A stretch of 64,000 nt of DNA, from the NCBI RefSeq assembly GCF_963676685.1, contig NC_092347.1:62682001-62746000 (forward strand), read 5' to 3'. The position numbers were made by a program, and so were the translations under genes. Under the pieces are notes generated by a model. It was not told where the DNA came from, did no database searches, and saw only the letters and a program-made list of their open reading frames with translations. Within the stretch, counting starts at the first letter, position 1, and every line of letters starts with the position of its first letter. Of this stretch, positions 20,171 through 57,589 are shown one piece after another. Source of the DNA: Mytilus edulis (lineage: Eukaryota).

Positions 20171-22707
20171 TTATTGTGTTTTACAAATCTTCTGAAAGTC
20201 ACAATCACCAAGTAGTTTATATGCCTGTTTGAAAGTCTGATAAAGACACACTTTGCTGCCACATGCAGGGATGTTAACTTCTTCTTCATTCACAAACATT
20301 TTAACGACGAAATTTCTGCTAACTCCACACTTGTAAAGGGCAGTACCTAAATTTGCAGAGAATGGACATGACTTGCTAACCCGAAATCGGCGGCTTTTGT
20401 TTGCTTCAAAATTGTTAGCTAAAAGTGTATTAGAGTCTTTGAATAGTCCAAATGCTGTATACACAGGAAGAAGCGTATAAGAATGCGCAAACTGAACATC
20501 AGCTACTGTGGTCCTGTAAAGGTAAAACATATAACACAAATATTAGACGCATAGCTAAGATTTTACATGAATAATGATCAATAATATCTCATACTTTCAC
20601 ATCTATACATCTATTTTTATTGTGCTGAAAGTGTTGAGATTTTTTTTTAAATGCTTCTCATCTTGGTCTAGAACAGTTTTCATGACTTCAGCCTATTTCC
20701 ATCGCAACTACTTGGTCATTTTTGATTTACGCCTACATTTTTGAAGCCTGTAGAGGATAACCGAACCAGAATCATTGTGAATAAATTTGATAGAAACTCC
20801 CATCCTGCATGTTAGAACTAGCATATATTTTTAAAAAGAAGTCTCCATAATTTGATATTTCCCATACTCACTCATTCTGATATGCAATGATGTCATCAAA
20901 TCGTTTTAACATGTGACTTGTAAAAGGACAGGACATTTGCCAGTTTATTGGGTAACCAAAGCCTCTCTGCCAGAAGTGCTGTAATGTAAACAATAGTCAT
21001 GCTGAAATAATATCACCATATATGATATTGTATGGCGGACAAAAACATTAGATTCTCTCATTCAAACCATAACATTCGAGTTATTTTTAAAACAGTATAT
21101 CCGTTTACATGTTATGTAAAAACTGTCTGAAATGAGCACTATCTGAACTTGCATGTGATATTTTGTTATTTTGTATACAAATTTTACTATAACATTATAA
21201 AGGAGATTGTGACATATACTTTATATATTTTTTTAAATATAGAACATGAATGTATCTAACAGCTGAAGGCGTGACACCAATTGCGCATGTCTCGCTGATG
21301 TAATTAAACTATATCGCCAGTGTTTGCAGGCTCCTTATTTCTTACGGATAAAACATTTTATATGACATCCTTCTTTGTTTCTTAAAGGATTTGAAAAAAG
21401 TATAATTCATTGCTAAAATTCACCGAACTTACCGATAAATCAAATAAGTAGTCTAACACTAAAAGATCGTCCAAAGTGAAAAAGCTGCACCAATCTGATT
21501 GGTTAAATATTCCAAGTTCGAAGGCACAAATCTGATGCATTGTTATGACTTGTTCTGAAATTCAAATGATGAACACTCCAAGTCACTATTTACTGACAAA
21601 AGGTGTATATCTTAAGTTTATGTTAATAAAGTAAGAAACAAGAACTAAATAAACGTCGAAATTTCAAATATATAGGATATATCTGAGCGAAAAACGGATG
21701 AAATATCAATCAATTAATTATAAGACGAGGACTGAAAGTCTAAAAAGGATAGTTTGTTAGATTGTTTTTATAACCTATTTCTTTTAATATTTATATTTGT
21801 TTCTGTTTCTGTTGTGTCCTTTTGAATATGTGTGATTATTTACATGTATACATAGATACGCAATTATAGATGTTTTAATAGAAAAAAGAAGATGTGGTAC
21901 AATTGCCAATTGGACAACTCTCCACAATAGACCAAAATGATAGAAATTAACAACTATAGGTTACCAAACGGCTTTCAACAATGAGCAATTAGTACCTGTC
22001 TTTAATTTTTGCACTCCGATTAGTTTCTTTATCTTATCAACTACTGTTCTCATCGTTGTTCCACCAACAAATGCATCATATTCCACATTTGATTTGTCAC
22101 TGTACGTTCTATACTTCTTACATTTTGAATAAAAACGGAGCCGTTGATCGTCCACTGTTGGAATTGGCATAGGTGCGTCAGCTGGCAAAGTTTCATTCAA
22201 ACTTTTGAAGAAAGCATCAAAACTTTGCCGAGTAACTTCCTTGCTTGTAATGGTATAATCTATAAGGTCCATTTTCCCTTCAAATAACTGTTTGAATTTC
22301 TCTCCGAATGTTCTACCTAGAGTTGTCGCTTCTTCATTTCCAAGTGAGGACATGGAATATGCATTTTCTTCTGCAAACGGGATTATCCACGTCTTCAAGA
22401 AGTTATGTTTCTTAACAACATCCGGGTACTGCTTCATCATTTTATGCAAATTCTTCATCCTCCGTATCCAGTAGAGTGATGGATATCTGGCAACATGTCT
22501 CATCAGCAGATTTAAGTTTACAATCTGACACACTTCACCATTGTACATGACAGTACTTTCGTCAGTTACTGTGTCATTGACGTATCTGTCTTTTGCCCAT
22601 GAATATGGTGTCATTACATTGAATACTGGTTTCGTGAAATTAGTCCCGCACTTAAGTTCTACCACAACAGTTGCTAAAAGTACGATTGACAAAATATAAG
22701 ATAGCAT
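20171..22707 (-). CDS. MINPP1: MINPP1-like histidine acid phosphatase paralog A, 427 aa, secreted, degenerate active site
   Basis: Exons 22707-21996, 21554-21433, 20978-20872, 20513-20171, GT-AG and in phase. Signal peptide; RHVARYP; LRFYxxC; ICAFELG..WC; GFGYPIN; FAHSYT; CPFSANL. Confidence 0.92.
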
Positions 22708-23767: not shown

Positions 23768-25567
23768 ATGTATATGTCGTGTACAAGTTGCGATTTTGTA
23801 CAGGTTATAACATGTACAAAAATGTTGTACATGTTATAACTTGTATAATGCAAAAATACAAGTTATAACATGTACAAAAGTACCTCATACATGTTATAAC
23901 CTGTACAAAATATTGCTTAAAAATGGTTTTAACTTGTACAAAATCGAAAAATAAGATGATATTGACCTCAATAACCTTTTTTTATTATTCCTTCATGTCA
24001 GTGTGTTTTGTCCTTTTTTGATACAGTTAATGTCCAGGGGTCGGTATTACGAAGCATTCCTAAGATCTGTCATAAGATATATCTTAGGACATGTCTTATG
24101 ATCCTTTTATGACTATCTATGGACGTATCTTTATTTAATGAATTATAATTGTGAGTGTCCACTTTGAAGGCAATAGTAAAATACTTTCATTCTAATTGAC
24201 ACTAAAAAGACGTAAGAGGATAGCCAGGATAGATGTGTCTACAATTGAAATTGGGAATTGAAATGGGGTATGTGTCTAAAAGACAACAACCCGCCCATGG
24301 ACCAAACAACACCTAAAGGCCACAAATACATGCTTTCAAAGTAGAGGATATATTTTAAACATCAAAATGACATTCGCCTCATGCAATGATCCTAGAGTTT
24401 ATAAAACAAGATTGAGTTATAAATTTACATAAGTCATGCTGAAGGCCAAAAATGTTGAAGAGTAGATCCAAAGATATTGATAATGAAGCGTGGTCCAATG
24501 AAAACTATTTCAGCTCACTCTTGCTTTTACAGAGTAAGCATATAAGACATTGTTTTAGTCTTTGCATGCTATAAAATGAGAGGGAGGAGTATTACCCAAA
24601 ATTATTCGGCATCGTTCTTAAATTTTTTGGAAGAATTTAGTTACTAGTATCTAATGTAATTGTCATTGAGTTGAGGAAATGCAAGCTTTTAGTAAATAGT
24701 TTCACACTTATTTAAGCCATGATGGACTGCATATAACATACAATTACATGAAAACACATTTGCCAACATAAGTCATGAAACATATATTTCTGAAACTTTG
24801 TGATCATTGTCCTCTACAGAAAAAGACACGTTCTGGCCTATTTATTGTTGTTCTTTATGCATTGGTAATTTGATAGTTCCAAAGCCAAAAACTGAACTGT
24901 TTAAAAAATCTTTTGCTTATTCTGGATCAGTTTTATGGAACGGACTACCTTATGAAATGCGTAAAGTGCAAAACACTTATTCTTTTAAACAAATTATAAA
25001 ACAATACTTGAGACAGTCCCAATATTCAGTCTGAATTGATTGCAACTACATTGTATTACTCTTAGAATGTATGATTTTAATGATTTGTATATACTAGGTC
25101 TATTTACTACATGCGATATTTAACTGTTTTATATCTTTTAATCATGGTACATGTACACTGAACTATTATGTCTATACAATTGTGTTTATATGTTGTATGA
25201 TTGCTTTTTTCTTTTATTATTACCATTTTGTTTTTACTTGTATTGCATACATGTATATGAGGGCCTCAGGGAAGATTAGTGATTGTAACTAACTGTGTTT
25301 ACCCTCTTTAAATAAAGAATTTATTATTATTATTATTATTATTATTGGTGAATTTAAATGTATATTTTACCTCATTAAGATTTATTTTTAATTTTGTACA
25401 AGTTAAAACCATTTTTTAGCAATATTTTGTACAGGTTATAACATGTATGAGGTACTTTTGTACATGTTATAACTTGTATTTTTGCATTATACAAGTTATA
25501 ACATGTACAATATTTTTGTACATGTTATAACCTGTACAAAATCGCAACTTGTACACGACATATACAT
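23768..25567. mobile_element. Fold-back-type DNA element with ~180-bp TIRs built from GTTATAAC/TGTACA subrepeats
   Basis: 23768-~23944 is a near-perfect reverse complement of ~25392-25567. Confidence 0.85.
24860..25346 (+). mobile_element. 5'-truncated L2/CR1-group LINE 3' end with (ATT)n tail
   Basis: LIVPKPKTELFKKSFAYSGSVLWNGLP..SFKQIIKQYL, then a 3' UTR, AATAAA and an (ATT)n tail. Confidence 0.8.
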
Positions 25568-27726: not shown

Positions 27727-30700
27727 TTAGAGACATTGAACATATTTAAGCATCACTGTAATTATAACTAAGACAAGTGACAAAAAAGTATATGTGAATC
27801 GCACAGCAGAACTGGTATCACAAATCTTATCAAAGTCACATTTAGCAAGCTCTTTGTAGTAATGTGACAGTGGAAAAAGCAGCTTCGTTTAATACTTAGG
27901 ACTTTAATATTTAATTCTCAATTTTGATATTTTAGACATTAATTATCTGTGTTTTATTATTCATTATATTTTATAATTTCATTTCTATTTACATTTCGTA
28001 TCCAGGACTTAAAATCAACATTCTTTAATATGCATTTAATTCTCAGTTTGGACATTGAGTGACATGTTTCAATCGGTTAGCTAATTAGTGACATTTTACC
28101 TTATTCATAATGTATGTTCTTAATTGTCATAATCAGATTATCATTTAATATCTATTCTTCAAGTTCTAAAAATAGTTTAATCTTTGTCAGTGAACAATAT
28201 CACTCAAATTAATTGTTATTTGTTATGTCCATACTTGTTAATTCAATTGTGTATAAATACTTGTTTATAATTTCTATAAGCAAGATTTGGACTCAGGACT
28301 TTACACTGAACACAGTCCATCTGTAATAAAAGTAATAGTATTCCATGCTGAATTATTGGTTTATTCATCGCTAGTTCCAAAGTCTCAAGAGTTAGTTTTC
28401 ACCAGAGTTTCAGAGTTCAGAGTTCTCATTGCTATTCACAGCAATCGTTCGTTGTGTGATCAGGTGCATCACACAGTTTCAGTAGCAAGAGGCCATTCAG
28501 TCAGGCTCTTGTTACACACCCGACAAGCCACCCAGTTTCCCCGGTGACAGATTGGTGGACGACGACGGCGTGCTGACTTCTATGCTCAGCACACGATCCA
28601 GAGACCTCAAGCAGCCAAGCGAGTTCCCCAGATAAGTAGCGTAGACAATATTCAGCGATGGAGTACAGCTTTCGACCACAATGGAGACCATGGAACATCC
28701 AGTCAGGTTACAGTCCAGCATGTGGGAGATGCGGTAAATTCCATAAACATTATATTTGTAATTCTGTCAATCAAAGGTGCTTTTCATGTAGAAAATTCGG
28801 ACATTTCTCAAGTAAGTGTTTTTCAAAAGCAACAAAAGACAGACAAAGTACACCAGTTCATGTGAAATCTAGAAAACAAAAAGAACGTGATATAGCTAGA
28901 ATACAAAGCTATATTGAGCGCAAAAACATCATCCGAGCTTTACCGTTCTCAGGTATGAGAAATTCGGCCTTCATTCAACATTTGGACATTGCAAATGTGT
29001 TAAAAACAGAACTAAATAGTGTTAAGTCGAAATTATCAGAGGAAAAACGGAAAAATTCAGAACATCAACAGTACATTCAGGACTTAAAATTTCAAATGAA
29101 CCATCTAGAGAGTGTTAAATCCGAGAGAGATCAGTTTAAGCAAGAGCTTGCAAACATTAGTAAACATAAAGAAGAAAATGCCTCGCGTATAAACGTACAG
29201 GAATATGTGAATCAAATTCAAGAATTAAAGGACCAAGTAATTGAAAAAGACAAGACTGTGAAAATGGTGCAAGATCTTTACTTTATGCGTTCAACCGAAT
29301 TTACGGACGAAATAGAAACATTGAAAAATGAAAAATCAGACCTTCATTCTAAACTTCAATCTCAAGAAAATTCTGTCAAACAGCTGACAGAAGAACTGCA
29401 AAGCCTTCGGAATGAAAATTATATGTTGTCTTCCAGTCAACACCAACAGCGACCTAACTACAACAACAGACACTATAACAACCGCAGAGGAGGCCGATTT
29501 AGATAGTGCTAAGTCCGAGGACGGACTTAATTGGGAGGAGAGGCATATGTGACAGTGGAAAAAGCAGCTTCGTTTAATACTTAGGACTTTAATATTTAAT
29601 TCTCAATTTTGATATTTTAGACATTAATTATCTGTGTTTTATTATTCATTATATTTTATAATTTCATTTCTATTTACATTTCGTATCCAGGACTTAAAAT
29701 CAACATTCTTTAATATGCATTTAATTCTCAGTTTGGACATTGAGTGACATGTTTCAATCGGTTAGCTAATTAGTGACATTTTACCTTATTCATAATGTAT
29801 GTTCTTAATTGTCATAATCAGATTATCATTTAATATCTATTCTTCAAGTTCTAAAAATAGTTTAATCTTTGTCAGTGAACAATATCACTCAAATTAATTG
29901 TTATTTGTTATGTCCATACTTGTTAATTCAATTGTGTATAAATACTTGTTTATAATTTCTATAAGCAAGATTTGGACTCAGGACTTTACACTGAACACAG
30001 TCCATCTGTAATAAAAGTATTAGTATTCCATGCTGAATTATTGGTTTATTCATTCGCTAGTTCCAAAGTCTCAAGAGTTAGTTTTCACCAGAGTTTCAGT
30101 ATCAGAGTTCTCATTGCTATTCAGAGCAATCATTCGTTGTGTGATCAGGTGCATCACACAGTTTCAGTAACAAGAGGCCATTCAGTCAGGCTCTTGTTGC
30201 ACATCCTAACAAGTCACCCTTATTTCCCCGGTGACAGTAATTCTTCACATCGGAATATGAACATACCGTTCCACCACAAGCTGGTATATTAACTTGCTCT
30301 TCATTAACAAATATTTTAAATGCATGTTTTCCATTTGCTCCACATTTGTACAAACTAAATGCAATATTTGCAGAAAACGGTGTTATTTCACTCGTACTGA
30401 ATTTTCGATTGATATTAGCATCATAGTTTGCTGCTGTGAATGACTCAGAATCCTTGAACAATCCAAATGCAGTGAAGATAGGTAGAATCGTATCTTGATG
30501 TCCAAAGAAAATATCTATTGGTGGGATGCTGAAATTTAAAAGATAAAATATTATAAATAGTACAAGTGTGGACACAGATCAGTGTGGAAAGTATGTTTGG
30601 ATGTTTGACAGTGTTTTCTGACAAAAGTTCTCAGGTAAATAGTAGAAAGTAAAACATTTACATTAAAGTTAAATAAACAAATTTTTATTTTCATACGTAA

Positions 30701-33549
30701 AAAGATATATATATTTTTTTTAAGTTGAACAATTATCATGTAACATGATACAAATGACGTTGTTTGTTACACCATCATAACTATCAGAGCATGAATAGTG
30801 AAATTATGAAGCTCGTTACTGCAGTGTCGTCAATTCTCTAGATCTAGTCTTGGCTATATTATAATCGGCAATCCTCGGGTGTATCCGCTTATCTCCTTCT
30901 AAGGGTACGGAATCGTCAATCTAATTAAAAACCGATCTCTCATCGCTCCTGTTACTGATATGTCGCTCCCACGCGACATATCAGAAAACGGGAGCGATGA
31001 GAGATCGGTTTTTAATTAGATTGCGGAATGGGACGAGTTGTGGCGAATGAGCTATATTATTGACGTCTTTTGGAGTTTTATGAAGTACAAAAATGTACTA
31101 CATTATCTACTTCCCTGTCGATTTTTCAATTAACTAGTAATCTCCAAACGATTTCCATTGGAAATATCCAACTGCGTTCATGACTCTACGTTAAACTGAA
31201 TGTGTTAATGACATTTTCACCCTATTTGATATCATACACGTACTTTTTGTCTTAGTCTGGTGGTTGTTCTAAGTGCGTCTTATATACAGTACTTGCCTGT
31301 TTGGTTTTTCGGAGTTTGTTACAGCTTCTTCGAATCGTTCAAAAAGATAAGACGTATAAGGGCAAGTCTGCTGCCAATTGATAGGGTAGCCATATCCCGT
31401 TTTATAGTATTCCTGGAAAATTAGATAAATAGAAGTGTTATATGTGTGAGAACTGTGCTTCTGAACTGAAACTTAATTTTGGTTGAATATTTTGCAAATG
31501 AGTTTACATGGAAGCCCAAATAAAAAATATATATATAATGTTTTGTGTGTAAAGTGGGAAGACACTTAATTACGGTAGAAGCTACTGACCTTCAAATGTT
31601 TATTAGAGACCTTGATCGGGGATTGGAAAATTTTATTTTGTCTACTATTTGATTTTCTATACAGCATAAGGCTTTGTACACATGATTTTATGGTTTTGGT
31701 CAATGATAAATGAAACTTATTCTTTATATATTTTTTGCGACCGAATGATTTTCTATATTTATCATCACCGGGAACTCTAAAACCCAAATATTTGAATGTA
31801 TCAATAACTTTACTCGCTATATGTATACAAAATCTATGTAATTGATTAAAAGTTTTAAGTGCATTCTTTTATTTTTATTATAATGGATATTGTTTGATAT
31901 TTGGGGGCTAGTATACGCAGGAGTGTACGCCTTTTTCATAAATCAATTGGCGTTTTTGAGGGCATTTATTCTAAAAAGAGCTAAATCAATAATAATCTTC
32001 AATTAGGTAATTATTGAATATCAGATTGCAAAAATTGTCGACTAAATAATTAAATGCATGTTATACATGTATTACCTCTAAATCGTCCCAATAAGATATA
32101 ACTCGCAAATCATCAATATTAAAAAATTGGCACCAATCAGACTGTCCATTCAGACCAAGCTCAAAGGCACATATTTGGTGAATCACAAAGACGTCATCTG
32201 AAGAAATACAAGAAAAATTGTAGATTGTAGAATTAATAATACAAATATGATAAAGTGATATTAGATTCTGTTTGTTTGCAGAAGTCTCCTTATAATGTAT
32301 TTTTTTAAGGCGGTCAGTTGATACCATATACGATATAAACTTCTGGTAAGTATAGAGAAAGTTACACACGAGCATCAGAAACAGAAGTCGAATAGTTACC
32401 AAGACAACCTGAAAATATAAATCAAAATGACAAGAATGTCATCATAGTTACAAGAGGCCCAGATATATATCAAACATTTAATTGGAATGAATTTTTAAAC
32501 AATAACCAATCAATCGCAAAGTGCCATTCCTCACATTCTTTTCTATAAACTTTAGACCCTCAACTTTTCTCCAACTTTTTTTCGACCGGATGTCTCCCTT
32601 TTTAGTGTATGATAAAAAGGAAACTCAATAATGTTATTCCTCATGTAGTGTAGTTTGATAAGTTGTAGAGATGTCAAACATTACAATTATATGTCATTGA
32701 TATATGAACGTTAAAATAATACATAAACAAGGAGATTGTCAGTACAAATGTCTAAGTTATGGTATATTCGTTCACCTTAGTTGATCGTTACTTACCAAAA
32801 TCTATAGATATATTGGAGGCTCCAAGTTTTGTCTGTACTTTCTGGACAATATTACTTATCTTCGAACCAGCTTCAAATAAATTAGCTTCTTTTAATATCT
32901 CGTCGTTATCATCAACTTCTTTCACGTATTTTGAACAGCTTTCATAAAATCTGGTTTTCATATTATCTACTTTTGACCAGGGTGACCCGAGGCGGGGTGT
33001 GGGTCCACTGCTTGGAGATGCTTCATTTAATCCGCTGTAAAAGTTTTTAAAACTTGATTTCGTTCGATCTCTGAAAGATGTTGCGAATTTCACTTGATTA
33101 AGTTTTCCGTCCAATAATACTTTAAACCTGGTTCCGAATCGTTTACCTAATATCTTCATTTCTTCAACTCCAAGGGTACTGAGAAGGCCCTGTTGGTTCT
33201 CAAGGAATGGATTAGTCCACTTATTCATGAACGGGTATGTCGAGAGAATAGCTGCGTTAGCTGTTAGCTTAGAATGCAAAGCTGTCATTCGTTTGATCCA
33301 TTTCAAGGTAGGAAATCGAGAACCATGCCTAAGTAATATATTCAGGCCTTCCAGTTGACAAGTTTCCCCATTGAGAATTGCTGTACTGAATTCGTTTTCT
33401 TGAATAACGTCCGATATATTCCTTACCCAAAAATAAGGAGTTTTGGTGTTGAATAATGGTTTCTTAAACAGATTATCACTAAGCACAATTGCAAAAAGAA
33501 AGCTAAAAATGAATGTTGAAATAACAATTTGCAACAAACAAGCCATCAT
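27727..33549 (-). CDS. MINPP1: MINPP1-like paralog B; last exon split by an LTR element (444 aa with insertion, 471 aa pre-insertion)
   Basis: Exons 33549-32796, 32197-32076, 31412-31297 (GC donor) and 30528-30237, with an in-frame remainder at 27858-27727 beyond the element. Motifs RHGSRFP, GHQDT, TPFSANI. With the insertion, the frame stops at 30186 inside the LTR. Confidence 0.92.
27863..30236 (+). mobile_element. Non-autonomous LTR retrotransposon (Gypsy-like signals, no pol)
   Basis: LTRs 27863-28549 and 29548-30236 with TG..CA ends. 4-bp TSD GTAA at 27859-27862 and 30237-30240. PBS-like TGGTGGAC.. at 28553 and PPT GGGAGGAGAGG at 29533-29543. The LTR has TATAAATA at 28252 and AATAAA at 28325. 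Confidence 0.95.
28658..29506 (+). CDS. LTR-element ORF, 282 aa: tandem zinc knuckles, long coiled coil, RGG tail
   Basis: Intact ORF filling the 998-bp internal region. CGRCGKFHKHYIC and CFSCRKFGHFSSKC; E/K/Q/L heptad-rich region at about aa 110-260; ends NNRRGGRFR. Confidence 0.85.
   Translation: MEYSFRPQWRPWNIQSGYSPACGRCGKFHKHYICNSVNQRCFSCRKFGHFSSKCFSKATKDRQSTPVHVKSRKQKERDIARIQSYIERKNIIRALPFSGMRNSAFIQHLDIANVLKTELNSVKSKLSEEKRKNSEHQQYIQDLKFQMNHLESVKSERDQFKQELANISKHKEENASRINVQEYVNQIQELKDQVIEKDKTVKMVQDLYFMRSTEFTDEIETLKNEKSDLHSKLQSQENSVKQLTEELQSLRNENYMLSSSQHQQRPNYNNRHYNNRRGGRFR
30917..31023. mobile_element. Mutator-like MITE (copy 1)
   Basis: TIR caatctaattaaaaaccgatctctcatcgctcc; degenerate 9-bp TSD cggaatcgt/cggaatggg. 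Confidence 0.8.
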
Positions 33550-37500: not shown

Positions 37501-37795
37501 ATATACGAGAATGTCAACCTATTCTGTAGTCAGTTGCCATATTTAAGAGAATGTCAACCTATTCTCTAGTCAGTGAGTTGCCATATTTAAGAGAATGTCA
37601 ACCTATTCTCTAGTAAAAATTGCCATATTTAAGAGAATATCAACCTATTCTCTAGTCAATTGCCATACTTAAGAGAATGTCAACCTCTTCGCTAGTCAAT
37701 TGTCATATTTAAGAGAATGTCAACCTCTTCTCTAGTCAGTTGGCATATTTAAGATAATGTCAACCTATTCTCTAGTTAATTGCCATGTTTAAGAG
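34580..37795. repeat. 40-bp satellite, about 80 units
   Basis: Consensus gagaatgtcaacctattctctagtcaattgccatatttaa, with 41-bp variants (agtaaaaattgcc). Confidence 0.97.
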
Positions 37796-38184: not shown

Positions 38185-41100
38185 CTATCCAAACGCTGGT
38201 TTGTGTGGATCATTTTGACATATCTGATCAAAATTACAGTCTGCTAGTTTACTGTAGAAGTTCTTGAAATCACCGTATCCACACACTGTATTCCCACAGC
38301 CTGGTATAATTACTGGATCTTCGTTAACAAACATTTGAATTACGTGATCACTGTTTCCGTCACATTTGTACAAAGCAACTGCTAAATTTGCCGAAAATGG
38401 ACCAATGATAGCACCGTGAAATGTTCGGTCTTTATTAACATCAAAGTTATCTGCTCTTAGCGGTTCAGCATCGTGAAATAAACCAAATGCGGTATAAACT
38501 GGAACAATTGTCTCGCTGTGACCAAATGAGATATCTAACTGTGGAACTCTGGAATTAGCAATATAAAGCCATAATAACAAAGTTGCGTAGAAATAAGCAA
38601 AATGCTCTCAAGAGCTTGTATAGCTTACAAGACATGTTTTGCCAAAATTAAATAGATACAATTAATGCAAAAATATTATTTGATAAAAATTTGATGAATT
38701 TATATCGTAATATTCTGAGCTGTTTAATTCTTGTCAGATTTGCAAGATGTAAGACAAGTTATGCACTTAACCTTTATGTTCTATTCACGGTAACAATGGC
38801 TGCCATTTTGTTTTTCTATCTGGGTAATCAAACTTTATACAAGATACCATAACAATCAATCCCCCAAAGTTTGGTTGAAATAGTTTCACGAGTTTCAGAG
38901 GAAAGGATTTTTAAAAAGTTTAAGAGGACGACGGACACCAAGTGTTGACTATACGAGTAAATATACGTTGATAGTGGGTTTTCCCATGGATGGAAACAAG
39001 TGGCTGTGCTATACAATACAATATTTTTATTTTCCAAATTAACGGACCCATTAAGAGCATAACATTAATTACAACATGACATAAACATTACAGAGTGATT
39101 AAAGAAACATAAAATAATAATTCAAATGCATGAGGAAAGAATCAGTGGTCAAGGGGAGATAATTTTGATATCTTTTAGAGTATTTAAGTAACTATTTTTC
39201 TGATTTTCTAAGTTGCAGGCCTTTATCGAGGTATGCACATAAAAAAGATAAAAATCTGCTATCTTCATTAATAATGATCCATGAAAAAAGATCTTTTCTA
39301 TTTGAATTATCTAAACTGGGGTATTTTTTTATATAATCAGTCACATCTCTTCTGAGGTTATTGTAAAGAGGGCATTTCAGAAGAAAGTGCATTTCATTTT
39401 CAATTCAATTTAAATTACAATTTAAACATATCCTCTCATGTCGAGGTAATATTTTATATTTACCACATACATTGGTAATTCGTTCATGTTTGCCAGTTTC
39501 TATTCTTAAACAGTGATTGCTGAGTCTGTATTTTGTTAACAAATTTTTTTTCGGGTGCTTTAAATCTAAATAATTTTTGTAGTTAAATGACCTTTTGAAT
39601 GAAAAATAAGTGTACAATTTGCCTTGATTCTGTAAATAAAAATCTCGCATTTTCTCCCAACAATTTTGAAAATTTAATTTGAGCTGTTTATTAGTAAATT
39701 TTTTAATTTATTTTTGCCTAAATTTTTACATATATTTAGGTCAATACCCAATTTTTTACTGTAGAAAATGATATTAGAGAGCCATGAATTATTGGAGCTA
39801 GTTTGAGCTTTACTCTCAATAATTTTTAACTCAGCATAAGCACTTTTGTTATAGATCACATAGCCTAGACACATAACCAGATGAGCTAAAAGAAATAACT
39901 TGACAAAAATCTTACAGTTTTTTCCCGATGAAGATAAATACCGAAAAGTGCCTCGGACTGTAGAAAATGATATTAGAGAGCCATGAATTATTGGAGCCAG
40001 TTTGAGCTTTACTCTCAATAATTTTTAACTCAGCATAAGCACTTTTGTTATAGATCACATAGCCTAGACACATAACCAGATGAGCTAAAAGAAATAACTT
40101 GACAAAAATCTTAGTTTTTTCCCGATGAAGATAAATACCGAAAAGTGCCTCGGACTGTAGAAAATGATATTAGAGAGCCATGAATTATTGGAGCCAGTTT
40201 GAGCTTTACTCTCAATAATTTTTAACTCAGCATAAGCACTTTTGTTATAGATCACATAGCCTAGACACATAACCAGATGAGCTAAAAGAAATAACTTGAC
40301 AAAAATCTTACAGTTTTTTCCCGATGAAGATAAATACCGAAAAGTGCCTCGGACTGTAGAAAATGATATTAGAGAGCCATGAATTATTGGAGCCAGTTTG
40401 AGCTTTACTCTCAATAATTTTTAACTCAGCATAAGCACTTTTGTTATAGATCACATAGCCTAGACACATAACCAGATGAGCTAAAAGAAATAACTTGACA
40501 AAAATCTTAGTTTTTTCCCGATGAAGATAAATACCGAAAAGTGCCTCGGACTGTAGAAAATGATATTAGAGAGCCATGAATTATTGGAGCCAGTTTGAGC
40601 TTTACTCTCAATAATTTTTAACTCAGCATAAGCACTTTTGTTATAGATCACATAGCCTAGACACATAACCAGATGAGCTAAAAGAAATAACTTGACAAAA
40701 ATCTTACAGTCGTTTCCCGATGAAGATAAATACCGAAAAGTGCCTCGGACGCATACAATCTATAATGTGGTTTCTCAATTTTTTAATGACTACTATATAT
40801 ACAGGAACTCTAATAAAGAAGTATCAAATTGTCAATTTCAAATAGAACTATTGACAAAACTTCTTTTATAAGACTTCCTTAAAATACTTCTTCTATAACA
40901 TTGTCAATTTCAAATAGAACCCTTAAAATATCTTTATCTGTAGAAAAAGTAAAATCCTCATATACTAGTAACATTTTCCTTTTCTGTATGTTTCTTCTAT
41001 GAATCGTGTGTTCGTACATTACTTATTTAATACAAATCTTTCACGTACACACTTCATTCAAATAAAATTCACAAGAATAGTAAGACCAAGAGGTTTGTTC

Positions 41101-43289
41101 GTCGATGTCATATTATAAATTCTATCGCGGACATATATTTTGTAACATTTAGACAATAGACTATTTATTACTTACTTATTATGCTGTAGACTGGCAGCTG
41201 AGACGGTTTGGTCGAACCTTTTAAACATGTATGAAGTAAATGGACAACTTTGTTTCCAATTGATAGGGTAAGCATATCCTTGCTCATAATAATCCTAAAA
41301 TAAACAACATGTTATAATTGCTCATAACCATAATTTTCGCGAAATAAATGATATTGCAAAACTGAAGTATTTATTGATTAAGTCATTTAATATTGTAATG
41401 CTGCTGAAGTTTTTCATTGCTGGATGCTTTAATCAGGAGCCTGTTGTTGAGAGACTGTTGTTTGTTGGTGTGGTTTATAGGTGTTTCTCGTTTCTTTTTT
41501 CTTTTAAACAGATTATAGTGTTGGTTTTCCTTTTTGAATTTGCTTAGGCTAATCATTTTGGGGCCCTTATTAGCTTAATTGTTGTTTGGTGTGAGCAAAG
41601 GATCCGTTTTAAAGGTCTGTAACCGTTAACTTTTTACACATTGTGACTTGAATGGAGAGTTGTGTCATTGGCAACCATACCACATCTCCTTTTCTGTACC
41701 AAGGACGTGAATCCCCTATCAACAAGCCAGCTTTGGACGGACGGAAAGACAGAAGGACGGTAAATGGTAACACTTAATGCTTCCTTCGACTTGCGGTGGG
41801 GGCATAAAAAGAGTATTCACATTTCCGACTCACGAAAGATAATTGATTAGTACTTACCTCTATATTTAGCAGGTAGTCAATGACGAGGAGATCATCTACG
41901 TCAAAAAGTCTACACCAATCAGATTTGTTGAACAGGCCCAACTCTAACGCACATATTTGGTTGATAACAACCACTTCAACTAAAAACGTAGGAAAGTAAA
42001 AATGAATACCTTTCACCATGAATTCATATATAAATGTTATCTACAGAAAGAAGCGGTACACTAAAAAAGGAATGTATACAGTACAGATATATGTGTCGTC
42101 CGTCCGTCTGTAAAATGCATCCAGTCAATATCTTTTAACAGTTTAGACGGGATAGGTCTAACTTATAATCATTTTTTATGCTGTTTTTGTGTGTATCGTG
42201 TATTTGGTTTCGGCATTTATTCACCTACCAATTTACATCAAAAATCCTTGCTGGCTTTCACATTTTTGAGTTTGGTCGTTTCTGCTGAAGGTTTACACAA
42301 AAAAAGTGTTTCATTTTATAAGATCCGTGACAGAAAAGTAGCAGTTAAATCAGCATTAAAAATATTTGAGGAAACTGATTTTGTTATTATAAAAATGCGG
42401 ACATATTCCTTTAAATGACAACCCTTTCTTTCAAGCCAAGCCAAAACACACACACACACACATACACACACACACAAACACGCAGGCTCTTTGAAGAAAC
42501 ACTTTCATATCCCCATTGCAGTTTAAAAGGGTCACCATTAACAGTTATTACGTAAAGCAAGAATATTGTACCTGCAGTCAAGTTGTAAAATCCTAGCTTA
42601 GTCTCAACTTTTCTGATCACGATTGTCATCTCCTTGCCACGAAGAAAGGCTTCATACTCGGTGGTAGTGTTATCATTTCCCTCTACCTCTACATTGTATT
42701 TGTGACAGTTATCGTAGAATCGAAGTTTTTCGTCGTCCACTTTAGCGTTTGGTTCCTGTGTGTTAGTTTGTAAAGTTTCGTTAAGTCCTTCATAGAAATA
42801 TTTGTAACTGTTCTGTGTTCGGTTTTTGTGAGTATATGAAAAGTTGATATGATTCAAGTTTCCTTGTAAGGAAGATTTAAATCGTCTTGCAAATCGATTA
42901 GCAAGTCTTAACATTTCGTATTCACCGACACGACTAAGGGTCCCTTCTTTAGTTTCCGGGAACGGATTGGACCACTGCTTAATAAATGGATACCGGGAAA
43001 TCACTTTCGAGTCGCTTGCTAATTTTATTTGCAATGCTGTCATCCACTTAATCCATTTTATTGTAGGGTATCTGGCGCCGTGTCTGAATAAAACATTCAG
43101 TCCTTCTAGTTGGCAAGTCTGGCCGTTATGGTTTAACGTATTATATTGATTGTCTGGTATACTTTCAGCTGGATCCTTCAACCAGAAATATAGAGTTTTT
43201 GTATTAAACAACGGTTTCATGAATGATTCATTTCCAAGCACAGTTGTACAAAATAAAAATAAATAAGCAAAATAAGTACACAGCTTCAT
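38185..43289 (-). CDS. MINPP1: MINPP1-like paralog C, 440 aa, secreted
   Basis: Exons 43289-42572, 41979-41858, 41294-41176, 38548-38185. Signal peptide MKLCTYFAYLFLFCTTVLG; RHGARYP; GHSET; GPFSANL. Confidence 0.94.
39192..39850 (-). mobile_element. Decayed LINE ORF2 C-terminal region in intron 3 of paralog C
   Basis: KYRLSNHCLRIETGKH..RICLNCNLN*IENEMHFLLKCPLYNNLR (C-terminal CCHC-type domain) with stops and frameshifts. Confidence 0.8.
39758..40748. repeat. Five-unit tandem array, units 199/197/199/197/199 bp
   Basis: Unit starts at 39758, 39957, 40154, 40353, 40550. Confidence 0.95.
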
Positions 43290-46141: not shown

Positions 46142-49100
46142 TTAACCGAGTATCATTACACAAGATAAATAAGTCAATAGCAATACCAGCAACAAGTCTG
46201 AACTCATAATGAAACTGTTACCGGTCATGTTGGTATTAATTTCACATATCTGTTTAACATTGCAGTTCGCAAGATGATGGTAATACGTTTCAAATTCTGA
46301 AAACAGACAACTGGTCTGTCCACATGCCGGAATAACTACTGGTTCCTCGTTTACAAATAATCGAATAACGTAAGCCATGGTTGTGTCACATTTGTACAAT
46401 CCAAAACCAAGATTGGCTGAAAATGGACCAATCAAACTTGTTCTAAATGTTCTGTTCTTGTTCATCAGGTAATTGTCTGCTAAAAGTTTCTGTGAGTTGT
46501 TGAACAACCCAAAAGCTGTATACAGTGGAATAATAGTATCAGTATGTCCAAACTGTATAACAAAGGGTTCTGGGTATATCTCACTGAAATGTATCAAGTA
46601 TAAGTAAAATAGATTTAATTTTAAATAGCAGCACTGTTTGACGCAGATAGACAAAAATGCTAGATTTAGGAAATTACAAGATTTCTGTATTATAACAGGC
46701 CAGAAATAATCAATTTTCAATGTCAATTTAAAGTCATACAGATAACTGCCAAGTAAGATTTAGTAGAAAGTAAGCATAAACATAATACAAGGCAATAGCA
46801 AAATTTAGTATACGGATTTATTTTTCCCATTTTAGAGTTAATTCCCTTAAAGTAGTCATTTTGATGCTATAGAAACAATCTCTCATTTTTGTTAAAGTTC
46901 CCGTTTATGATTATCTTACTCATGTGATAGTGGATTACTTGCTCATTTCCACAGCGCATTTATGCAAAAAGTTTACTTGTTTGCCGGATCGTTAACTGTT
47001 GAGGAAAACAGTTCTCTTTTTGTATTGTTTCAAAATTATATATTGAAAAGTAAAAGATTCACATCATAATATAGAAGCTTTCATCTAATACTTTCCTTGC
47101 ATTTCATACAGATTTTTACTTTGTATATTTTGCACGTTTTCCCGGGATTCTTAATAATAAACGTTTTAAAATTTTGGTTTTCTTACAGACACTTGCATAT
47201 ATAAAATGGCAAACAATTACAAAGAATTCAGCAAAATGATGAAACTCAGATCTTTCACTCTGATCATTTAAATTTGTTTCAATAAGTCTAACAGAGTTTG
47301 TTAAAAGATCTGATTTTAATTAGATTAAATATGTTTGGACGTCTGTCAGTTTTGACATTTACTTACTAATTTAAAGACGATCGCTTTATTTTTCGACCTA
47401 CGACAAATGCCTATTTCAGTGCATTCTGAAATATGACAGAATATTGGAACATCGAAGAGAAATTCATGATAGTGGTAATATTGCAACGACCGATTACGTC
47501 TAATGTCCATGTGCAAATTACTTGATGGGTGGATTGGTGTAACGTCCAGTTATACAAACCTTACATGTATACAAGATGATAAACTGTAAATGTGGTACCT
47601 AAGAGTATGAATGCTGCTTTGTACTAGGCTTAGATGCTGAACTGGATTTTCAATTGCTACTTATTATGTAGTAAACGCCAATGATTAATTCTTTGTATTA
47701 ACCAAGGCTTCGGATCGAACCCGCACGTACTCCCACACTCGAGTCGATGTGCAATGCGAGGCAATTTACTTGACAAAAGCGTTTCATAATGGTACGCACA
47801 ATTTCCAATCGCAGGTTTTAGAAAACTTAAAAGACCAAACTCGATATTGAACTTTTCACCTAATATCATTTTTTATTTATATAACAACAAGGCACTGGAC
47901 GGTATAACTCATAAACCGTGGCCTATACGTAAGTATAAATGGAAAAGGAAATGTCAGATTTAAATTAAAACCCGTTTGGCAATTTTTATCATTTCGGGCA
48001 CTTTTTAACAGAAGCCATTAATCATTCTTACTTTTAAGATTAAAGTGTGAAACCGTTTGTTAAAAAATGTAGTTGCTTGGGGTAGACAAATTTAATTGTT
48101 TTCTGAATGCCGTTCCGAGACCTTTTCTCTCTGACAAACATTTAATAAGATGTAATATATTGCGGTTCAAAATGTTTAAGAGTTTCATTTCCTTAATGCC
48201 GGCGTCACACATTGGCGTATAGACCGACGTGCACCAGACGTACATAGAAAATTGACTAAATCCGTATACGTTAGGTGCAACAAGAGGAACGCTAAACAAT
48301 CGTTAGACGCGCGCTGCATAAGTTTGAAGTACTTCGAAATGCAAAGGTATACGCTTGGTAAACGCTATAACAGCAGAAAATTTTTATGCAGCATAAAAAT
48401 TTTCATCTAGCTCTAGCGTTTGCCAAGCGTATGTATACACGCACGTAATACATACGCTACAAGCGCGTTGGAAAACGCTACAGATAAGTTTGAGACACGT
48501 TTAGGGCAGAAGGAGTATTATTTACCAGAAAAAAAACTTAGAACGTATAGAATATATTGTGTAACTGATGACAGAAGTCTAAAAACCTTCAGACTGGTTT
48601 TATTTTTATTTTATGTCTTTGGTGGCTGTAAGAAGATTGGTGGTAAAGAAAAACTAGTCATTTTTCTCTCAACAACAAAAAATCCTTACATACTGACGCA
48701 TATTAAAAACGCAACACACATTTTGGAGATTTTGTTTTACCATGTGATTGATTCTCACTTTTTCCCATTTATAATTTCCACATGCAAAGCGCCTTAGGTA
48801 ACTGCTTCGTTTAATATAAACACGAGAAAACAATGATGTTTCATATTTTTGGACTGATCAGGCTTCAATTTAGCAGCGGCCCACTCTCCAATGGCCCCTT
48901 AAATTTGGTGTGGCCTCACAAAGTTTCTGCTTTTCTTGTATAGAACTATATAAATTGTTTTTAAGCTGTGGGGTACCATTGCCAAATCTTAACTTCAATT
49001 CCTGGCTGATATTTTTATTGCAATTCAACACTTTGAAAGACAATAACACACTTACACACATTCATTTATACGCTTGTTATTGGCTTTAAGTTAGCTGCCA

Positions 49101-52100
49101 GTAACTGCAAGTACTCTCAGATATTTACTTATTTGTCTTTTTTGTTGGTGAGATAATTTGTCATCGTGACCACGATAAATCATAAATATGTTAAACACTA
49201 CAAAGGAAATATAGTGGGTGATGATTGATTGTATAATGCCATGTAGGTATTTACGACCATTGCATATCCATATAATGAACACAAGTAGGCCGTTAGTTTT
49301 CTCGTTTGAATTGTTTTACATTGTCATTTCGGGGACTTTTATAGCTGACTATGCGGTATGGGCTTTGCTCGTTGTTGAAGGCCGTACAGTGACCTATAGT
49401 TGTTAATGTCTGTGTCTTTTGGAGAGTTGTCTCATTGGCAATCATATCACAACTTCTTTTTCACATTACTAAATTACCTATAGCATATACTCACTTGTGT
49501 CGTTTTCCATTCACAACATTTCTGAACATTTTGAACAGCCGTGACGTGTATGCACAAGATGTCTGCCAATTAATATTGTAGCCATATCCCATTTCCCAAT
49601 AGTTCTAAAGAAGAAATTAGTTTCCATAAAATAATCACTTACTATAGTATTGATAAATTGGTTGGTGTTTAACGCCATTTACAGCACTATCGTGTTATTT
49701 CGAGCTGGTCCGTTTTTATTAATGGGGGAAGCTGGAGTGCCAGATAAAAACCACCAACCCCCATTTTAAAGGGGTTATAACATATGTCCCTATCCTAAAA
49801 CATTAGTTGTAAAACACAAAGTGGGTTCCAATCCCGAGACACGTCTGTTTGCAAACGCCACTGTATATATTAGCTATATACTCTGTATATATGTACTTTC
49901 AAATCTTATGGTCATACTGTTTTCCTATGTCAGATTATTATTTCATTTTTTATTTTTTATAATAGAACTTAATACAAAAGGAATTACTATTAACACCGAC
50001 TCCCAGATATAAATCTACGATTTTGGTCAATATATAAAAAAAAATGTGGTATAATTGCCAGTCACACCCACTAACCAAAATGCTGTAGAAGTTGAAACTA
50101 TAGGTCAACGCGCGGCTTTCGTCAATGAATATAAAAACATACCGCATAGCAAGCTAGAAAACACAAATGTAAAACAAATCGAACGAAAGAACGTCTTTTT
50201 TGTCGCAATTTTTACAATTTTATCAAGACGGCAAGCGTTAGTTCAATTTATCATGTAAACGGAATTTAGACGGTTCTTTACTGAGTTTGGCAATGATAGC
50301 ATAACGATACAGGAACAAGTCTGCTCTAAAAGGGGCACTATTGGTATTCTTAAGAATACCTATAATCTGTCGATACATTTTATTACTAAAAAGTAAATCT
50401 GATCAGTTTATCATCTCGCACGTTTAGTATTATAGAAATAAGGAGATGTGATATGATTGCCAAGGAAAAAAGTATCCACAAAAGTTCAAATGAAGTCGAT
50501 GTAAGCAATTGTAGGTAACCGTACGGCCTTCACAACAATGAGAAAAAGTAAATACATCTACCATATTTACCTAAAACTAATTGCTTTATGTATGAGGTAC
50601 AGCAGATAATTTTCCAGTCAGATTTTAAAACGACCAATAATTTTAATTGAAACCAAATCTGTTATTTTTGAAGAAAAAAAATTTGTGGAAGTGTAGTGAA
50701 AAGAGTTGAAACGTCAAAACATTAAATCGAATTAAAAGGACCACCACGAAAAATAGTTAATTTCGCAATTTTTATATACTTTACTTTAAAAGTTAAAATA
50801 AGTTCTTTTGTAGTAGTTTGCATGACTATTATAATAACATGTATCATGATTAACAATCTAATTAAAAACCGATCTCTCATCGCTCCTGTTTCTGATATGT
50901 CGCGTGGGAGCCCCACGCGACATATCAGAAACAGCGAGCCCCACGCGACATATCAGAAACAGGAGCGATGAGAAATCGGTTTTTAATTAGATTGCATGAT
51001 TAAGTACTTACACGAATGTCAATTAGGTAGTCAATGATCAGTAGATCTTCCATGTCAAAGAATTGGCACCAATTTGATTTTTCAAACATACCAAGTTCAA
51101 ACGCACATATTTGTTGAATGGTAACAATTTCCGCTGTAAAAAAAAAGACATATAAAAAACGGTCATAAGTGTGGAAATAGTCATGTTATATATTGTCATG
51201 TCAAAACAACACATTAGGGAAAATGAAAAGTTCAGTGTCATATGCATTACTGCGTGTTTAATTAAGGTCTGGTTAACAGCAGCAATTGCAACGTTCTGTT
51301 TCTTCGCCAAATACGTCACATGAAGGGACTTTGTGTCATTAAATTATATAACTTAATTAACTCTTCTTTCGCAGTAAACCTGTTCTATTCAGAGTCTGGA
51401 ATACTTAACGTATATTTCATTTCACATTGGATGTTTAGTTTGGAGGGATACATTTTTGTATGAGGGGGGGAAAAAAGCCGAAAAAAGTGCAATCTCATTT
51501 CTATTTTGTCCGATAGTTTTGATAAATATCCGATTTCCGATAAATATCTGTTTTAGATTCATCTCTTTACTAAACTAACGAAAACATTTACAATTGCAAT
51601 GATCTTTGCAACGTCTCCACCTGGTTTCAAATAAATAGTACATGTTGTAAAACACATTGCATTTTTTTCTTTTAAAATTATCGTTCGAAATCTTTAGTTT
51701 GATCATGTTAACTAATAAGAACCATGGTATATATAGTTCTCAACCAATGGTTAGCTGGACATCACACGACGTGTTTGCTTTTTGCAAATTTTTCGAACAA
51801 AATCAGACAAAAAGCACTTTATTGGCCACGAGCATCACTGAAGAGACATGTATTGTCGAAATGCGCATCTGGTGCAAGAAAATTGGTACCGTTAATTTTA
51901 TTACTACCACTGCATGGGTCGATGCCTCTGCTGGTGGACTATTAGTCCCCGAGGGTATCACCAGCCCAGTAGCCAGTACTTCGGTATTGGCATGAAAATA
52001 CGGATTTTTTTTGTGTTATTAAACTTTGCTGTTACAAAATGAAAGAAATTATTATAAATTAAGGAATGTATCTCCCTCATGCAAAGCTCTGATTCCTTTC

Positions 52101-52990
52101 ACGGATTTGGCTATACTTTTTGGACCTTTTGGATTATAGATCTTCATCTTTTATATAAGCTTTGAATTTCACATATTTTTACCACGAGCATCACTGAAGA
52201 GACATGTATTGTCGAAATGCGCATCTGGTGCAAGAAAATTGGTACCGTTAATTTTATTATCATATCATACAAAATTACCTGGTTCGATTTCAGAAGTTCC
52301 AATTTTCTGTCTTACTTTGTTGACAACAGATTTCATTTCATCTCCATTTAAGAATTTGTAAAATTCAGTCAAAGTTTCATTGTTTTGGTCAACCTCTTTT
52401 ATGTATTTACCACAGTAGTCGTAATACCTCAGTAATCTATCGTCTGTAGATGTTGTTATTGACTGTTTACCCATAACATTCTCTAAACCCAGACAAAACT
52501 TGCTTTTGCTTTGCTTTGTCCTATCTTTCGACGTCGTTTCAAACATAATCTTGCCAGCATTTTTACGTACATTGTTTCTAAATCGTTTGACAAATCTTTC
52601 CCCGAGCTGAAGCATTTCTTCATCTCCAACGACAGACTGTTGGTACTGTTTGCTTTTTGGAAATGGGGTTCTCCAGTTACCTATAAACGGATGTTTTGTA
52701 ACAACTAATGAATCCCCTCTTAGAACTGTGGAAATGTTATCCATTTTTTGTATCCATGGTAGAGATGGGTATCTGGCAGCGTGTCTGAATAAGTAATGAA
52801 AATTTGTAATTTGACACGAATGTCCTCCATACATAAATGATCCATCTCTATTCTCCGGAATAGTTTCATTGATACTTTTTACCCAAAAATACGGAGTCAT
52901 AGCATTAAAAATAGGCTTCTTTAAATTGTCTCCAGTAATCACTTTGGTAATTGAAAATAACATAACTGTCAAAATAATGATATATTCCAT
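46142..52990 (-). CDS. MINPP1: MINPP1-like paralog D, 461 aa, hydrophobic GPI-type C-terminus
   Basis: Exons 52990-52279, 51133-51012, 49604-49495, 46583-46142. Motifs RHAARYP and GHTDT; ends ..TGNSFIMSSDLLLVLLLTYLSCVMILG*. Confidence 0.94.
48197..48508. mobile_element. Partial inverted copy (one end) of the same Harbinger-like element
   Basis: Reverse complement of about 2290-2508 joined directly to 3224-3285; preceded by TAA. Confidence 0.8.
50854..50994. mobile_element. Mutator-like MITE (copy 2)
   Basis: Same TIR; perfect 9-bp TSD CATGATTAA. Confidence 0.85.
51832..51875 (+). ncRNA. Minimal type I hammerhead ribozyme
   Basis: GCAUCA-CUGAAGA-GAC(auguauu)GUC-GAAA-UGCGCA-UC^UGGUGC. Stems I and II pair; predicted cleavage after C51869. 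Confidence 0.88.
52188..52231 (+). ncRNA. Minimal type I hammerhead ribozyme (second copy)
   Basis: Identical to 51832-51875; predicted cleavage after C52225. Confidence 0.88.
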
Positions 52991-57529: not shown

Positions 57530-57589
57530 TTCTACATCTCTGCAACTTTGGAATCGCCTTTTACATTTGTTTTGACAAATTAAATAGCG

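What the first reader, a model, noticed from the sequence alone, without database searches (positions are those of the whole stretch)
27727..30528. LTR insertion removes the GPI-type tail of paralog B
Seen: deleting the element and one GTAA copy restores the frame ..DVKNY-YKELAKCDFDKICDTSSAVRFTYTFLSLVLVIITVMLKYVQCL*. The inserted allele instead ends ..DVKNY-CHRGNKGDLLGCATRA*, read from the antisense LTR. The catalytic motifs are kept, but the conserved CxxxxxC pair and the hydrophobic anchor signal are lost. The orphaned tail is undecayed, so the insertion is recent. Inference: a null allele or an anchored-to-secreted switch, probably polymorphic.
Basis: partly seen in the sequence, partly recalled or inferred. 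Interest (0 to 1): 0.7.

Follow-up and report, generated by a model that had tools for sequence, protein, structure and literature searches.

The report
Retrotransposon cuts mussel phosphatase's anchor tail
A young 2.4-kb retrotransposon sits in the last exon of one of four neighbouring mussel phosphatase genes and cuts off the enzyme's likely membrane anchor plus two predicted structural cysteines; sequencing runs from other samples hold the uninterrupted gene, so this is likely an ordinary damaging insertion allele, not a new secreted form.

Summary
A 2,374-bp LTR element (27863-30236; TG..CA ends, GTAA duplication) lies antisense in exon 4 of a Mytilus MINPP1-like phosphatase. It swaps the last 43 residues for 16 LTR-encoded ones. 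Contigs of two public runs join exon and tail with one GTAA and no differences, so the empty allele of this haplotype exists. One run bridges the right junction; the left junction was not covered. Five orthologs keep a GPI-type tail. The lost cysteines are probably structural: the last is present in 109 of 109 homologs and maps onto a phytase disulfide; the first co-varies with a core cysteine (92/2/0/15). Natural tail changes in the family all lie after that last cysteine; this cut lies before it. A null or weak allele is therefore likelier (0.55) than a secreted switch (0.25), although the LTR peptide places a cysteine one residue off register. The 5' 472 LTR bases are identical, so the insertion is young; the 3'-end differences probably come from two templates. 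Side result: the element is a pol-less LTR element with one zinc-knuckle/coiled-coil ORF under purifying selection, from a multi-family clan. No RNA of the inserted allele was seen.

The parts
32796..33549 (-). Paralog B exon 1: hydrophobic N-terminus, RHGSRFP catalytic motif; carries a 5-residue in-frame insertion (about 32977-32996) absent from the 6 other proteins aligned
32076..32197 (-). Paralog B exon 2
   Evidence: model equals P0006
31297..31412 (-). Paralog B exon 3, followed by a GC-AG intron; holds the core cysteine that co-varies with the first tail cysteine
30237..30528 (-). Paralog B exon 4 up to the insertion (HQD motif); 30237-30240 is one copy of the target-site duplication
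30186..30236 (-). 16 codons and stop read from the antisense 3' LTR; two cysteines (429 and 440 of P0006)
30045..30050 (-). AATAAA on the gene strand, 136 nt after the new stop; candidate poly(A) signal of the inserted allele (untested)
29548..30236 (+). 3' LTR, 689 bp
29532..29547 (+). Polypurine tract
28658..29506 (+). Single 282-aa ORF of the element: two N-terminal zinc-knuckle-like motifs then coiled coil; no capsid, RT or integrase match; dN/dS 0.17-0.25 against diverged copies
28553..28570 (+). PBS-like site starting TGG three bases after the 5' LTR; matching tRNA not found
27863..28549 (+). 5' LTR, 687 bp; TATAAA at LTR position 390 and AATAAA at 463 mark the likely U3/R/U5 layout
27859..27862 (+). 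Second copy of the GTAA target-site duplication
27727..27858 (-). Orphaned native tail, 43 codons and stop: CxxxxxC, small-residue triplet SSA 28 residues from the end, 13-residue hydrophobic stretch
   Evidence: joined to exon 4 in contigs of X4 and X17
30212..30220 (-). Weak candidate splice donor 19 nt inside the element (phase 1), untested
27852..27875 (-). Weak candidate AAG splice acceptor 7 nt into the orphaned tail (phase 1), untested
20171..22707 (-). Paralog A: ends 3 residues after the last cysteine, no anchor
38185..43289 (-). Paralog C: short polar tail after the last cysteine, no anchor (start approximate)
46142..52990 (-). Paralog D: intact hydrophobic GPI-type tail

Best explanation
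A young, non-autonomous LTR retrotransposon inserted antisense into the last exon of a MINPP1-like phosphatase gene, replacing its last 43 residues with 16 foreign ones and likely producing a null or weak allele that segregates beside intact alleles. Shown: the element, the duplication, the new stop, the intact tail behind it, the empty allele in other runs. Inferred: the transcript would end at the antisense AATAAA 136 nt past the new stop and escape nonsense-mediated decay because the stop is in the last exon. The protein would enter the ER with its catalytic motifs but without the GPI-type signal and without the two tail cysteines that are predicted to tie the C-terminal helices to the core. 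The unpaired core cysteines and the missing segment would likely cause ER retention, degradation or an unstable enzyme. An intact allele, paralog D and the other paralogs would buffer the loss.
For: Anatomy. X1 has a 128-nt contig across the right junction, 37 LTR plus 91 host bases, 0 differences, and a second exon type that leaves the window there. 5 of 5 closest orthologs with a full C-terminus (P0001, P0002, P0004, P0005, P0008) keep the hydrophobic tail. Cysteines, P0001 numbering: C199 and C435 in 109 of 109 aligned homologs; C303 and C429 both present in 92, both absent in 15, C303 alone in 2, C429 alone in 0, with 8 parsimony changes each on a FastTree tree, mostly on the same branches. 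C63, C199, C255, C268, C387, C409 align with phytase cysteines; the ortholog model aligns to A. niger phytase up to 437:444 (Z 35.6, rmsd 2.8, 379 aligned) and to bacterial MINPP up to 437 (Z 38.0, rmsd 2.7, 373 aligned); PhyA has a 192-442 disulfide (PMC5733987, Table 1 passage). Model confidence for residues 421-440 is 98 and 90 in the intact ortholog against 66 for 431-440 in the inserted form. Youth: 0 differences in the first 472 LTR columns, 95% upper bound 0.6%.
Against: No RNA or protein of the inserted allele was seen, so transcript end, folding and activity are all inferred. The LTR peptide has a cysteine at 440 that MAFFT put into the invariant column, and AlphaFold still draws a short helix there with a confident core (mean pLDDT 94.3; the alignment of intact homologs biases this). 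15 of 109 homologs lack the C303-C429 pair, so that bond is dispensable when both are gone. The models gave no coordinates, so the disulfides were not measured. The left junction was covered in neither X1 nor X3, and X1 may be the sample behind the assembly. All 4 runs hold two exon types; I read them as alleles because the assembly has one locus and the second type matches P0001/P0008 at the 4 changed residues, but an unassembled paralog is not excluded.
Confidence: 0.55

Rival explanations
1. Anchored-to-secreted switch: the inserted allele makes a soluble, active enzyme, because the LTR-encoded cysteine one residue off register re-forms the invariant disulfide.
For: Catalytic motifs and N-terminus intact. 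LTR cysteine 440 against native 441. Tails are labile in the family: 40 hydrophobic, 19 ER-type, 42 short, 8 other among 109; 25 parsimony changes for hydrophobic or not (shuffled mean 33). Paralogs A and C have no anchor. Human MINPP1 keeps activity without its ER signal (PMC7705663, passage).
Against: All 109 homologs, short-tailed ones included, keep the native segment up to the last cysteine; some short tails may be truncated gene predictions. The partner of core C309 is lost, a second foreign cysteine at 429 could mispair, and confidence in the foreign segment is low (66).
Confidence: 0.25
2. Splice rescue: a weak donor 19 nt inside the element and an AAG acceptor 7 nt into the orphaned tail share phase 1, so splicing would restore the tail, both cysteines and the anchor with four extra residues.
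For: The donor scores 74.9 on a recalled frequency table, fourth of 126 GT sites in the antisense element and inside the 69.8-96.9 range of the likely real donors of the four paralogs. Precedent recalled, not read: the antisense 412 insertion in Drosophila vermilion is partly spliced out (search gave one listing that I did not open).
Against: The acceptor is AAG with 0.62 pyrimidines, while the gene's three real acceptors are CAG with 0.75-0.88. The upstream AATAAA would end the transcript first. The score table is vertebrate and from memory. The database model P0006 is unspliced.
Confidence: 0.1
3. The allele is silenced or destabilised at RNA level by antisense transcription from the LTR promoters or by piRNA-guided silencing, so the protein form hardly matters.
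For: Element and gene are convergent; the LTR has a TATA box and poly(A) signal; the 3' LTR would fire into exon 4. General knowledge of transposon silencing.
Against: No expression data for the allele. The outcome merges with the best explanation (loss of function).
Confidence: 0.08
4. Assembly artefact: the element was wrongly placed in the exon.
For: Left junction not covered in the two runs where it was looked for with hope of a carrier (X1, X3).
Against: Exact 4-bp duplication, LTR pair unique to this locus in its U3 part (next best 99%), and a contig across the right junction in X1.
Confidence: 0.02

Closest known systems
MINPP1 / histidine phosphatase branch 2 (PF00328), including Drosophila Mipp1
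   Same: Pfam E 1e-38 for P0006; RHGxRxP and H-x-D motifs; ortholog model matches MINPP and phytase structures at Z 35-38. Drosophila Mipp1 is described as anchored outside the plasma membrane (second-hand, PMC7705663 passage; the primary paper was not held).
   Different: Mytilus has a four-gene tandem array with anchored (B, D) and short-tailed (A, C) members apart from an HDEL-type gene (P0024); this allele is cut before the terminal cysteines, unlike all 109 homologs.
Ordinary transposon-insertion alleles that truncate a last exon (general knowledge; structural variation is reported as extensive in Mytilus, PMC7653742, search listing only)
   Same: Insertion with target-site duplication, new stop from antisense element sequence, empty allele still present.
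   Different: Only the particulars: the new peptide happens to carry a near-register cysteine, and in-phase cryptic splice sites flank the element.
TR-GAG non-autonomous LTR retrotransposons of plants (PMC8704663, abstract and passages)
   Same: Two LTRs, one ORF, no pol, evidence of transposition.
   Different: Animal host; 2.4 kb; ORF of 282 aa with N-terminal knuckles and a coiled coil and no recognised capsid domain; no autonomous partner with the same LTR end found.
TRIMs: biv-TRIM (PMC6934838, passages) and Helenus (PMC10886601, abstract and passages)
   Same: Short non-autonomous LTR elements of bivalves; animal Helenus also makes 4-bp duplications and is linked to Gypsy helpers.
   Different: TRIMs are under 1,000 bp and non-coding; this element is 2,374 bp, coding, and has no Rfam match in its LTRs.

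Membership tests
LTR retrotransposon (non-autonomous) | Direct terminal repeats with TG..CA ends | tested here: met
LTR retrotransposon (non-autonomous) | 4-6 bp target-site duplication | tested here: met
   GTAA here; perfect in 10 of 15 family copies examined, one mismatch in 2, none in 3
LTR retrotransposon (non-autonomous) | Polypurine tract before the 3' LTR | tested here: met
   present in 15 of 15 copies
LTR retrotransposon (non-autonomous) | Primer-binding site complementary to a tRNA 3' end | tested here: inconclusive
   TGG-starting conserved site; two pattern searches gave 5 places, none a tRNA by ARAGORN; no self-priming complement of 6 nt or more in the LTR
Autonomous LTR retrotransposon | pol with RT, RNase H and integrase | tested here: not met
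   998-bp internal part with one 282-aa ORF and no such Pfam match
TR-GAG | Two LTRs, a single ORF, no pol | tested here: met
TR-GAG | The ORF encodes Gag | tested here: inconclusive
   Only zf-CCHC hits, below the Pfam cut-off for this family, above it for 2 of 4 distant clan members scanned; no capsid hit; Atlas best score 0.79; not folded
TRIM | Under 1,000 bp and non-coding | tested here: not met
   2,374 bp with a selected ORF
Troyka | 3-bp duplication and CG..CG ends | tested here: not met
   4-bp duplication, TG..CA; definition from the abstract of PMC12440569
MINPP1 / histidine phosphatase branch 2 | RHGxRxP nucleophile motif and HD-type proton-donor motif | tested here: met
   RHGSRFP and HQD; Pfam above cut-off
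MINPP1 / histidine phosphatase branch 2 | Fold | tested here: met
   Model of ortholog P0001: Z 38.0, rmsd 2.7, 373 aligned to bacterial MINPP
MINPP1 / histidine phosphatase branch 2 | Inositol-polyphosphate phosphatase activity | not testable with these tools
   needs an assay
GPI-anchored protein (native allele) | N-terminal signal peptide | tested here: inconclusive
   Hydrophobic N-terminal helix of about 25 residues; no signal-peptide predictor available
GPI-anchored protein (native allele) | Small-residue omega site, spacer, terminal hydrophobic stretch | tested here: met
   SSA 28 residues from the end here and 23-24 in P0001/P0004; best 13-residue hydropathy 3.08 against 0.85 for the inserted form; rules recalled, hand-coded
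GPI-anchored protein (native allele) | No cytosolic tail after the hydrophobic stretch | tested here: inconclusive
   Orthologs end at the hydrophobic stretch; this haplotype has 6 more residues, so a short transmembrane anchor is possible
GPI-anchored protein (native allele) | Release by PI-PLC | not testable with these tools
   needs a bench test

The most novel reading that the evidence does not exclude
The inserting element is one of an undescribed animal clan of miniature LTR retrotransposons (1.7-2.4 kb, many LTR and primer types) that carry no pol and no recognisable capsid, yet keep a single zinc-knuckle plus coiled-coil protein under purifying selection: a cis-acting adaptor that loads its own RNA into the particles of unrelated Gypsy helpers. 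Its R-U5-only LTR differences would record frequent two-template reverse transcription. (The boldest reading of the host gene, a transposon-made secreted enzyme rescued by an LTR cysteine, is rival 1.)
Probability: 0.3. Interest if true: 0.6.

Novelty: new member of a known kind. Interest (0 to 1): 0.33.

Why it matters
As an allele it matters little: it is one more segregating transposon knock-out in a structurally variable genome, and the reference model P0006 misstates the usual C-terminus of the gene. It would matter more if the inserted form were secreted and active, since anchor gain and loss recur in this enzyme family and here both states could be compared on one haplotype. Two side results carry beyond the locus: LTR-pair divergence in this family overstates age because differences sit in R-U5, and the element looks like an animal counterpart of TR-GAG with an unusual protein.

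Tried and rejected
Second copy of paralog B in the assembly: not found by exon-4 and tail searches or in 10 kb on each side of the window. Decay of the orphaned tail: its differences from the RefSeq orthologs are shared with the empty sister allele in X4, so they are not post-insertion decay. Whole-LTR dating (8 substitutions): rejected, since all lie after column 472 and most states recur in other copies. Left junction in X1 and X3: no cover, which the tool says proves nothing. Primer tRNA: not found. Autonomous partner: all 23 exact LTR-end plus PBS matches are at short-element loci; L082 is a copy broken by another insertion; of 9 further LTRs, 7 are solo LTRs and 2 truncated; the two long-ORF hits are 8.6-kb gag-pol elements sharing only the knuckle. 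Troyka, TRIM, Helenus: rejected on definitions. Atlas search with homolog P0178 gave nothing above 0.79. Earlier findings of the scan: none. Literature: no paper holds both 'Mytilus' and 'MINPP1'; searches listed no description of this element clan, but Repbase and subscription papers are not covered, and the supplements of PMC10886601 and PMC10294476 were not read and may list such families. The primary Drosophila Mipp1 paper was not held.

Full report
What is there. The window holds four tandem histidine-phosphatase genes on the minus strand, A (20171-22707), B (27727-33549), C (38185-43289) and D (46142-52990), each with four exons. Their closest named relatives are Mytilus MINPP1-like proteins. 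Exon 4 of B is interrupted by a 2,374-bp element at 27863-30236 on the plus strand: LTRs of 687 and 689 bp with TG..CA ends, GTAA on both sides, a PBS-like site, a polypurine tract and one 282-aa ORF. Read through, exon 4 gains 16 LTR-encoded residues and stops at 30186. The four-exon model equals database protein P0006 letter for letter, which is probably the annotation of the same DNA. The 43-codon native tail lies intact at 27727-27858; the native protein would have 471 residues.

Is the insertion real and polymorphic? Twenty of the 24 runs listed hold part of the locus; I laid five of them. In X1 a 128-nt contig spans the right junction with 37 LTR and 91 host bases and no difference; X1 may be the sample behind the assembly. 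In X4, X5 and X17 a 137-nt contig matches exon 4 without difference and leaves the window at 30236. For X4 and X17 its other side lies on the orphaned tail and runs on into 30242: the exact empty site of this haplotype. X17 is only guessed to be RNA; its cover is mostly exonic. X4's tail differs from the orphan by two coding substitutions (one silent, one F to S) and one gap in the 3' UTR over 137 bases. So the tail is undecayed, and its differences from the RefSeq orthologs are older than the insertion. The left junction was not covered in X1 or X3. All four runs also hold a second exon type that matches P0001 and P0008 at the four changed residues. The assembly has one such locus, so I read the types as alleles, with X1 carrying one inserted and one empty allele; an unassembled paralog is not excluded.

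How old? The LTRs are identical over the first 472 columns; all 16 differing columns (8 substitutions by pairwise alignment) lie after that. The 95% upper bound on divergence from the identical part is 0.6%. The bias is family-wide: in 14 elements (tandem locus L011 left out; it differs throughout) a multiple alignment gives 9 substitutions before LTR position 450 and 78 after, while differences between elements are spread 15.6 to 12.6; pairwise alignments give 12 and 60 with the cut at 470 (counted). Three pairs are identical and L018 differs only at 378-404. The break follows a TATA box at 390, the likely start of R. For 10 of 12 differing columns of this element in the multiple alignment, both states occur in other copies. 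I infer that the two R-U5 halves came from two co-packaged RNAs. Reverse-transcription recombination between co-packaged RNAs is reviewed in PMC6894440 (passages), which describes mosaics with identical LTRs; unequal R-U5 halves through a heteroduplex are my inference.

Is the tail a GPI signal? Five of five closest orthologs with a full C-terminus end in a small-residue triplet, a short spacer and a hydrophobic stretch that reaches the end. This haplotype has the same layout plus six residues. Best 13-residue hydropathy is 3.08 for the orphan and 0.85 for the inserted form. Drosophila Mipp1 is described as anchored outside the membrane (PMC7705663, passage). No predictor was available, so this is anatomy, not proof; a short transmembrane anchor is possible.

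What does the cut remove? In 109 aligned homologs (P0001 plus 108 of the hits, chosen for near full length), C199 and C435 are invariant. C303 and C429 are both present in 92 and both absent in 15; C303 stands alone in 2 and C429 in none. The Fisher p of 1e-16 is inflated by kinship, but each changes 8 times on a quick tree, mostly together. The other co-varying pairs (63-387, 255-268, 409-414) match known phytase disulfides, which supports the method. The ortholog model aligns to A. niger phytase up to 437:444, placing C435 on C442, the partner of C192 (PMC5733987, table passage). So both lost cysteines probably bond to the core, and the segment up to 437 belongs to the conserved fold. Tails after C435 vary freely: 40 hydrophobic, 19 ER-type, 42 short, 8 other. 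Nature switches location after the last cysteine; this insertion cuts before it. AlphaFold confidence over the segment falls from 98 and 90 to 66, though the core stays confident.

Mechanism and odds. Most likely (0.55) the allele is transcribed to the antisense AATAAA at 30045-30050, escapes decay because the stop is in the last exon, and yields an unanchored, poorly folded or ER-retained enzyme. Against this, the LTR peptide places a cysteine at 440 where the native one would be 441, which keeps a secreted active form possible (0.25). In-phase cryptic splice sites flank the element: a donor at 30218 scoring 74.9 on a recalled table, within the range of the array's donors, and a poor AAG acceptor at 27851; splice rescue gets 0.10. 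RNA-level silencing gets 0.08 and artefact 0.02. None of the functional steps was observed.

The element. The internal part matches 39 places in the genome, about 25 of them nearly full length; the LTR gave 182 candidates, 40 scored; 7 of 9 unlinked LTRs examined are solo LTRs. The ORF is 282-288 aa in 13 of 18 copies examined, and dN/dS is 0.17-0.25 against the 9 diverged ones, 0.77 against one close copy and undefined for two near-identical ones. Pfam finds only weak knuckle and coiled-coil hits. A distant homolog finds 115 places; of 8 short-ORF loci of other families fetched, 6 show an LTR-ORF-LTR unit of 1.7-2.3 kb with 99-100% LTR identity, 1 is a tandem unit and 1 has no pair. No helper with the same LTR end was found. 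It works like a plant TR-GAG (PMC8704663, passages), but Gag identity is inconclusive, and it fails the TRIM and Troyka definitions. Searches listed no description of it; Repbase was not available.

Verdict. It is a new instance of a familiar kind of allele, more likely damaging than innovative. Interest 0.33, with the element clan as the better lead.

Noticed in passing
window 28658-29506; L097, L098, L100, L101, L102, L105, L106: Clan of 1.7-2.4 kb pol-less LTR elements, each with one zinc-knuckle plus coiled-coil ORF of about 280-380 codons, different LTRs and primer sites, LTR pairs mostly 99-100% identical; purifying selection on the ORF of the window's family.
   Followed up: partly
window 27863-28549 against 29548-30236; L002-L020: Differences between the two LTRs of a copy sit almost only in the likely R-U5 part across the family, so LTR-pair dating would overstate ages.
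   Followed up: partly
window 20171-22707: Paralog A has RHVARYP and HSY where the others have an acidic proton donor; the same in orthologs P0021 and P0023. Candidate pseudo-phosphatase or altered enzyme.
   Followed up: no
window 32977-32996: Exon 1 of this B allele has a 5-residue in-frame insertion absent from the 6 other proteins aligned; not tested whether empty sister alleles share it.
   Followed up: partly
window 31291-31296: Intron 3 of paralog B has a GC donor; automated models P0008 and P0002 differ here.
   Followed up: partly
L003, L004, L011, L012, L015: 5 of 15 family copies lack a perfect target-site duplication (2 with one mismatch, 3 with none, one of them a tandem array); possible recombination between copies.
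   Followed up: no
window 34581-37755: Long satellite of 40- and 42-bp units between paralogs B and C; a 197/199-bp tandem repeat at 39758-40849 in an intron of C.
   Followed up: no
window 23768-25567: 1.8-kb stretch bounded by 183-bp inverted repeats (98% complementary) between paralogs A and B; likely a young non-autonomous DNA transposon.
   Followed up: no
window 57584-58006: Exon of an intermediate-filament gene on the plus strand (Pfam Filament, E 8.5e-24).
   Followed up: no
L103 2480-7324; L104 2192-7063: Two 8.6-kb single-ORF gag-pol elements with near-identical LTRs; L103 has RT, RNase H, integrase and a chromodomain.
   Followed up: partly
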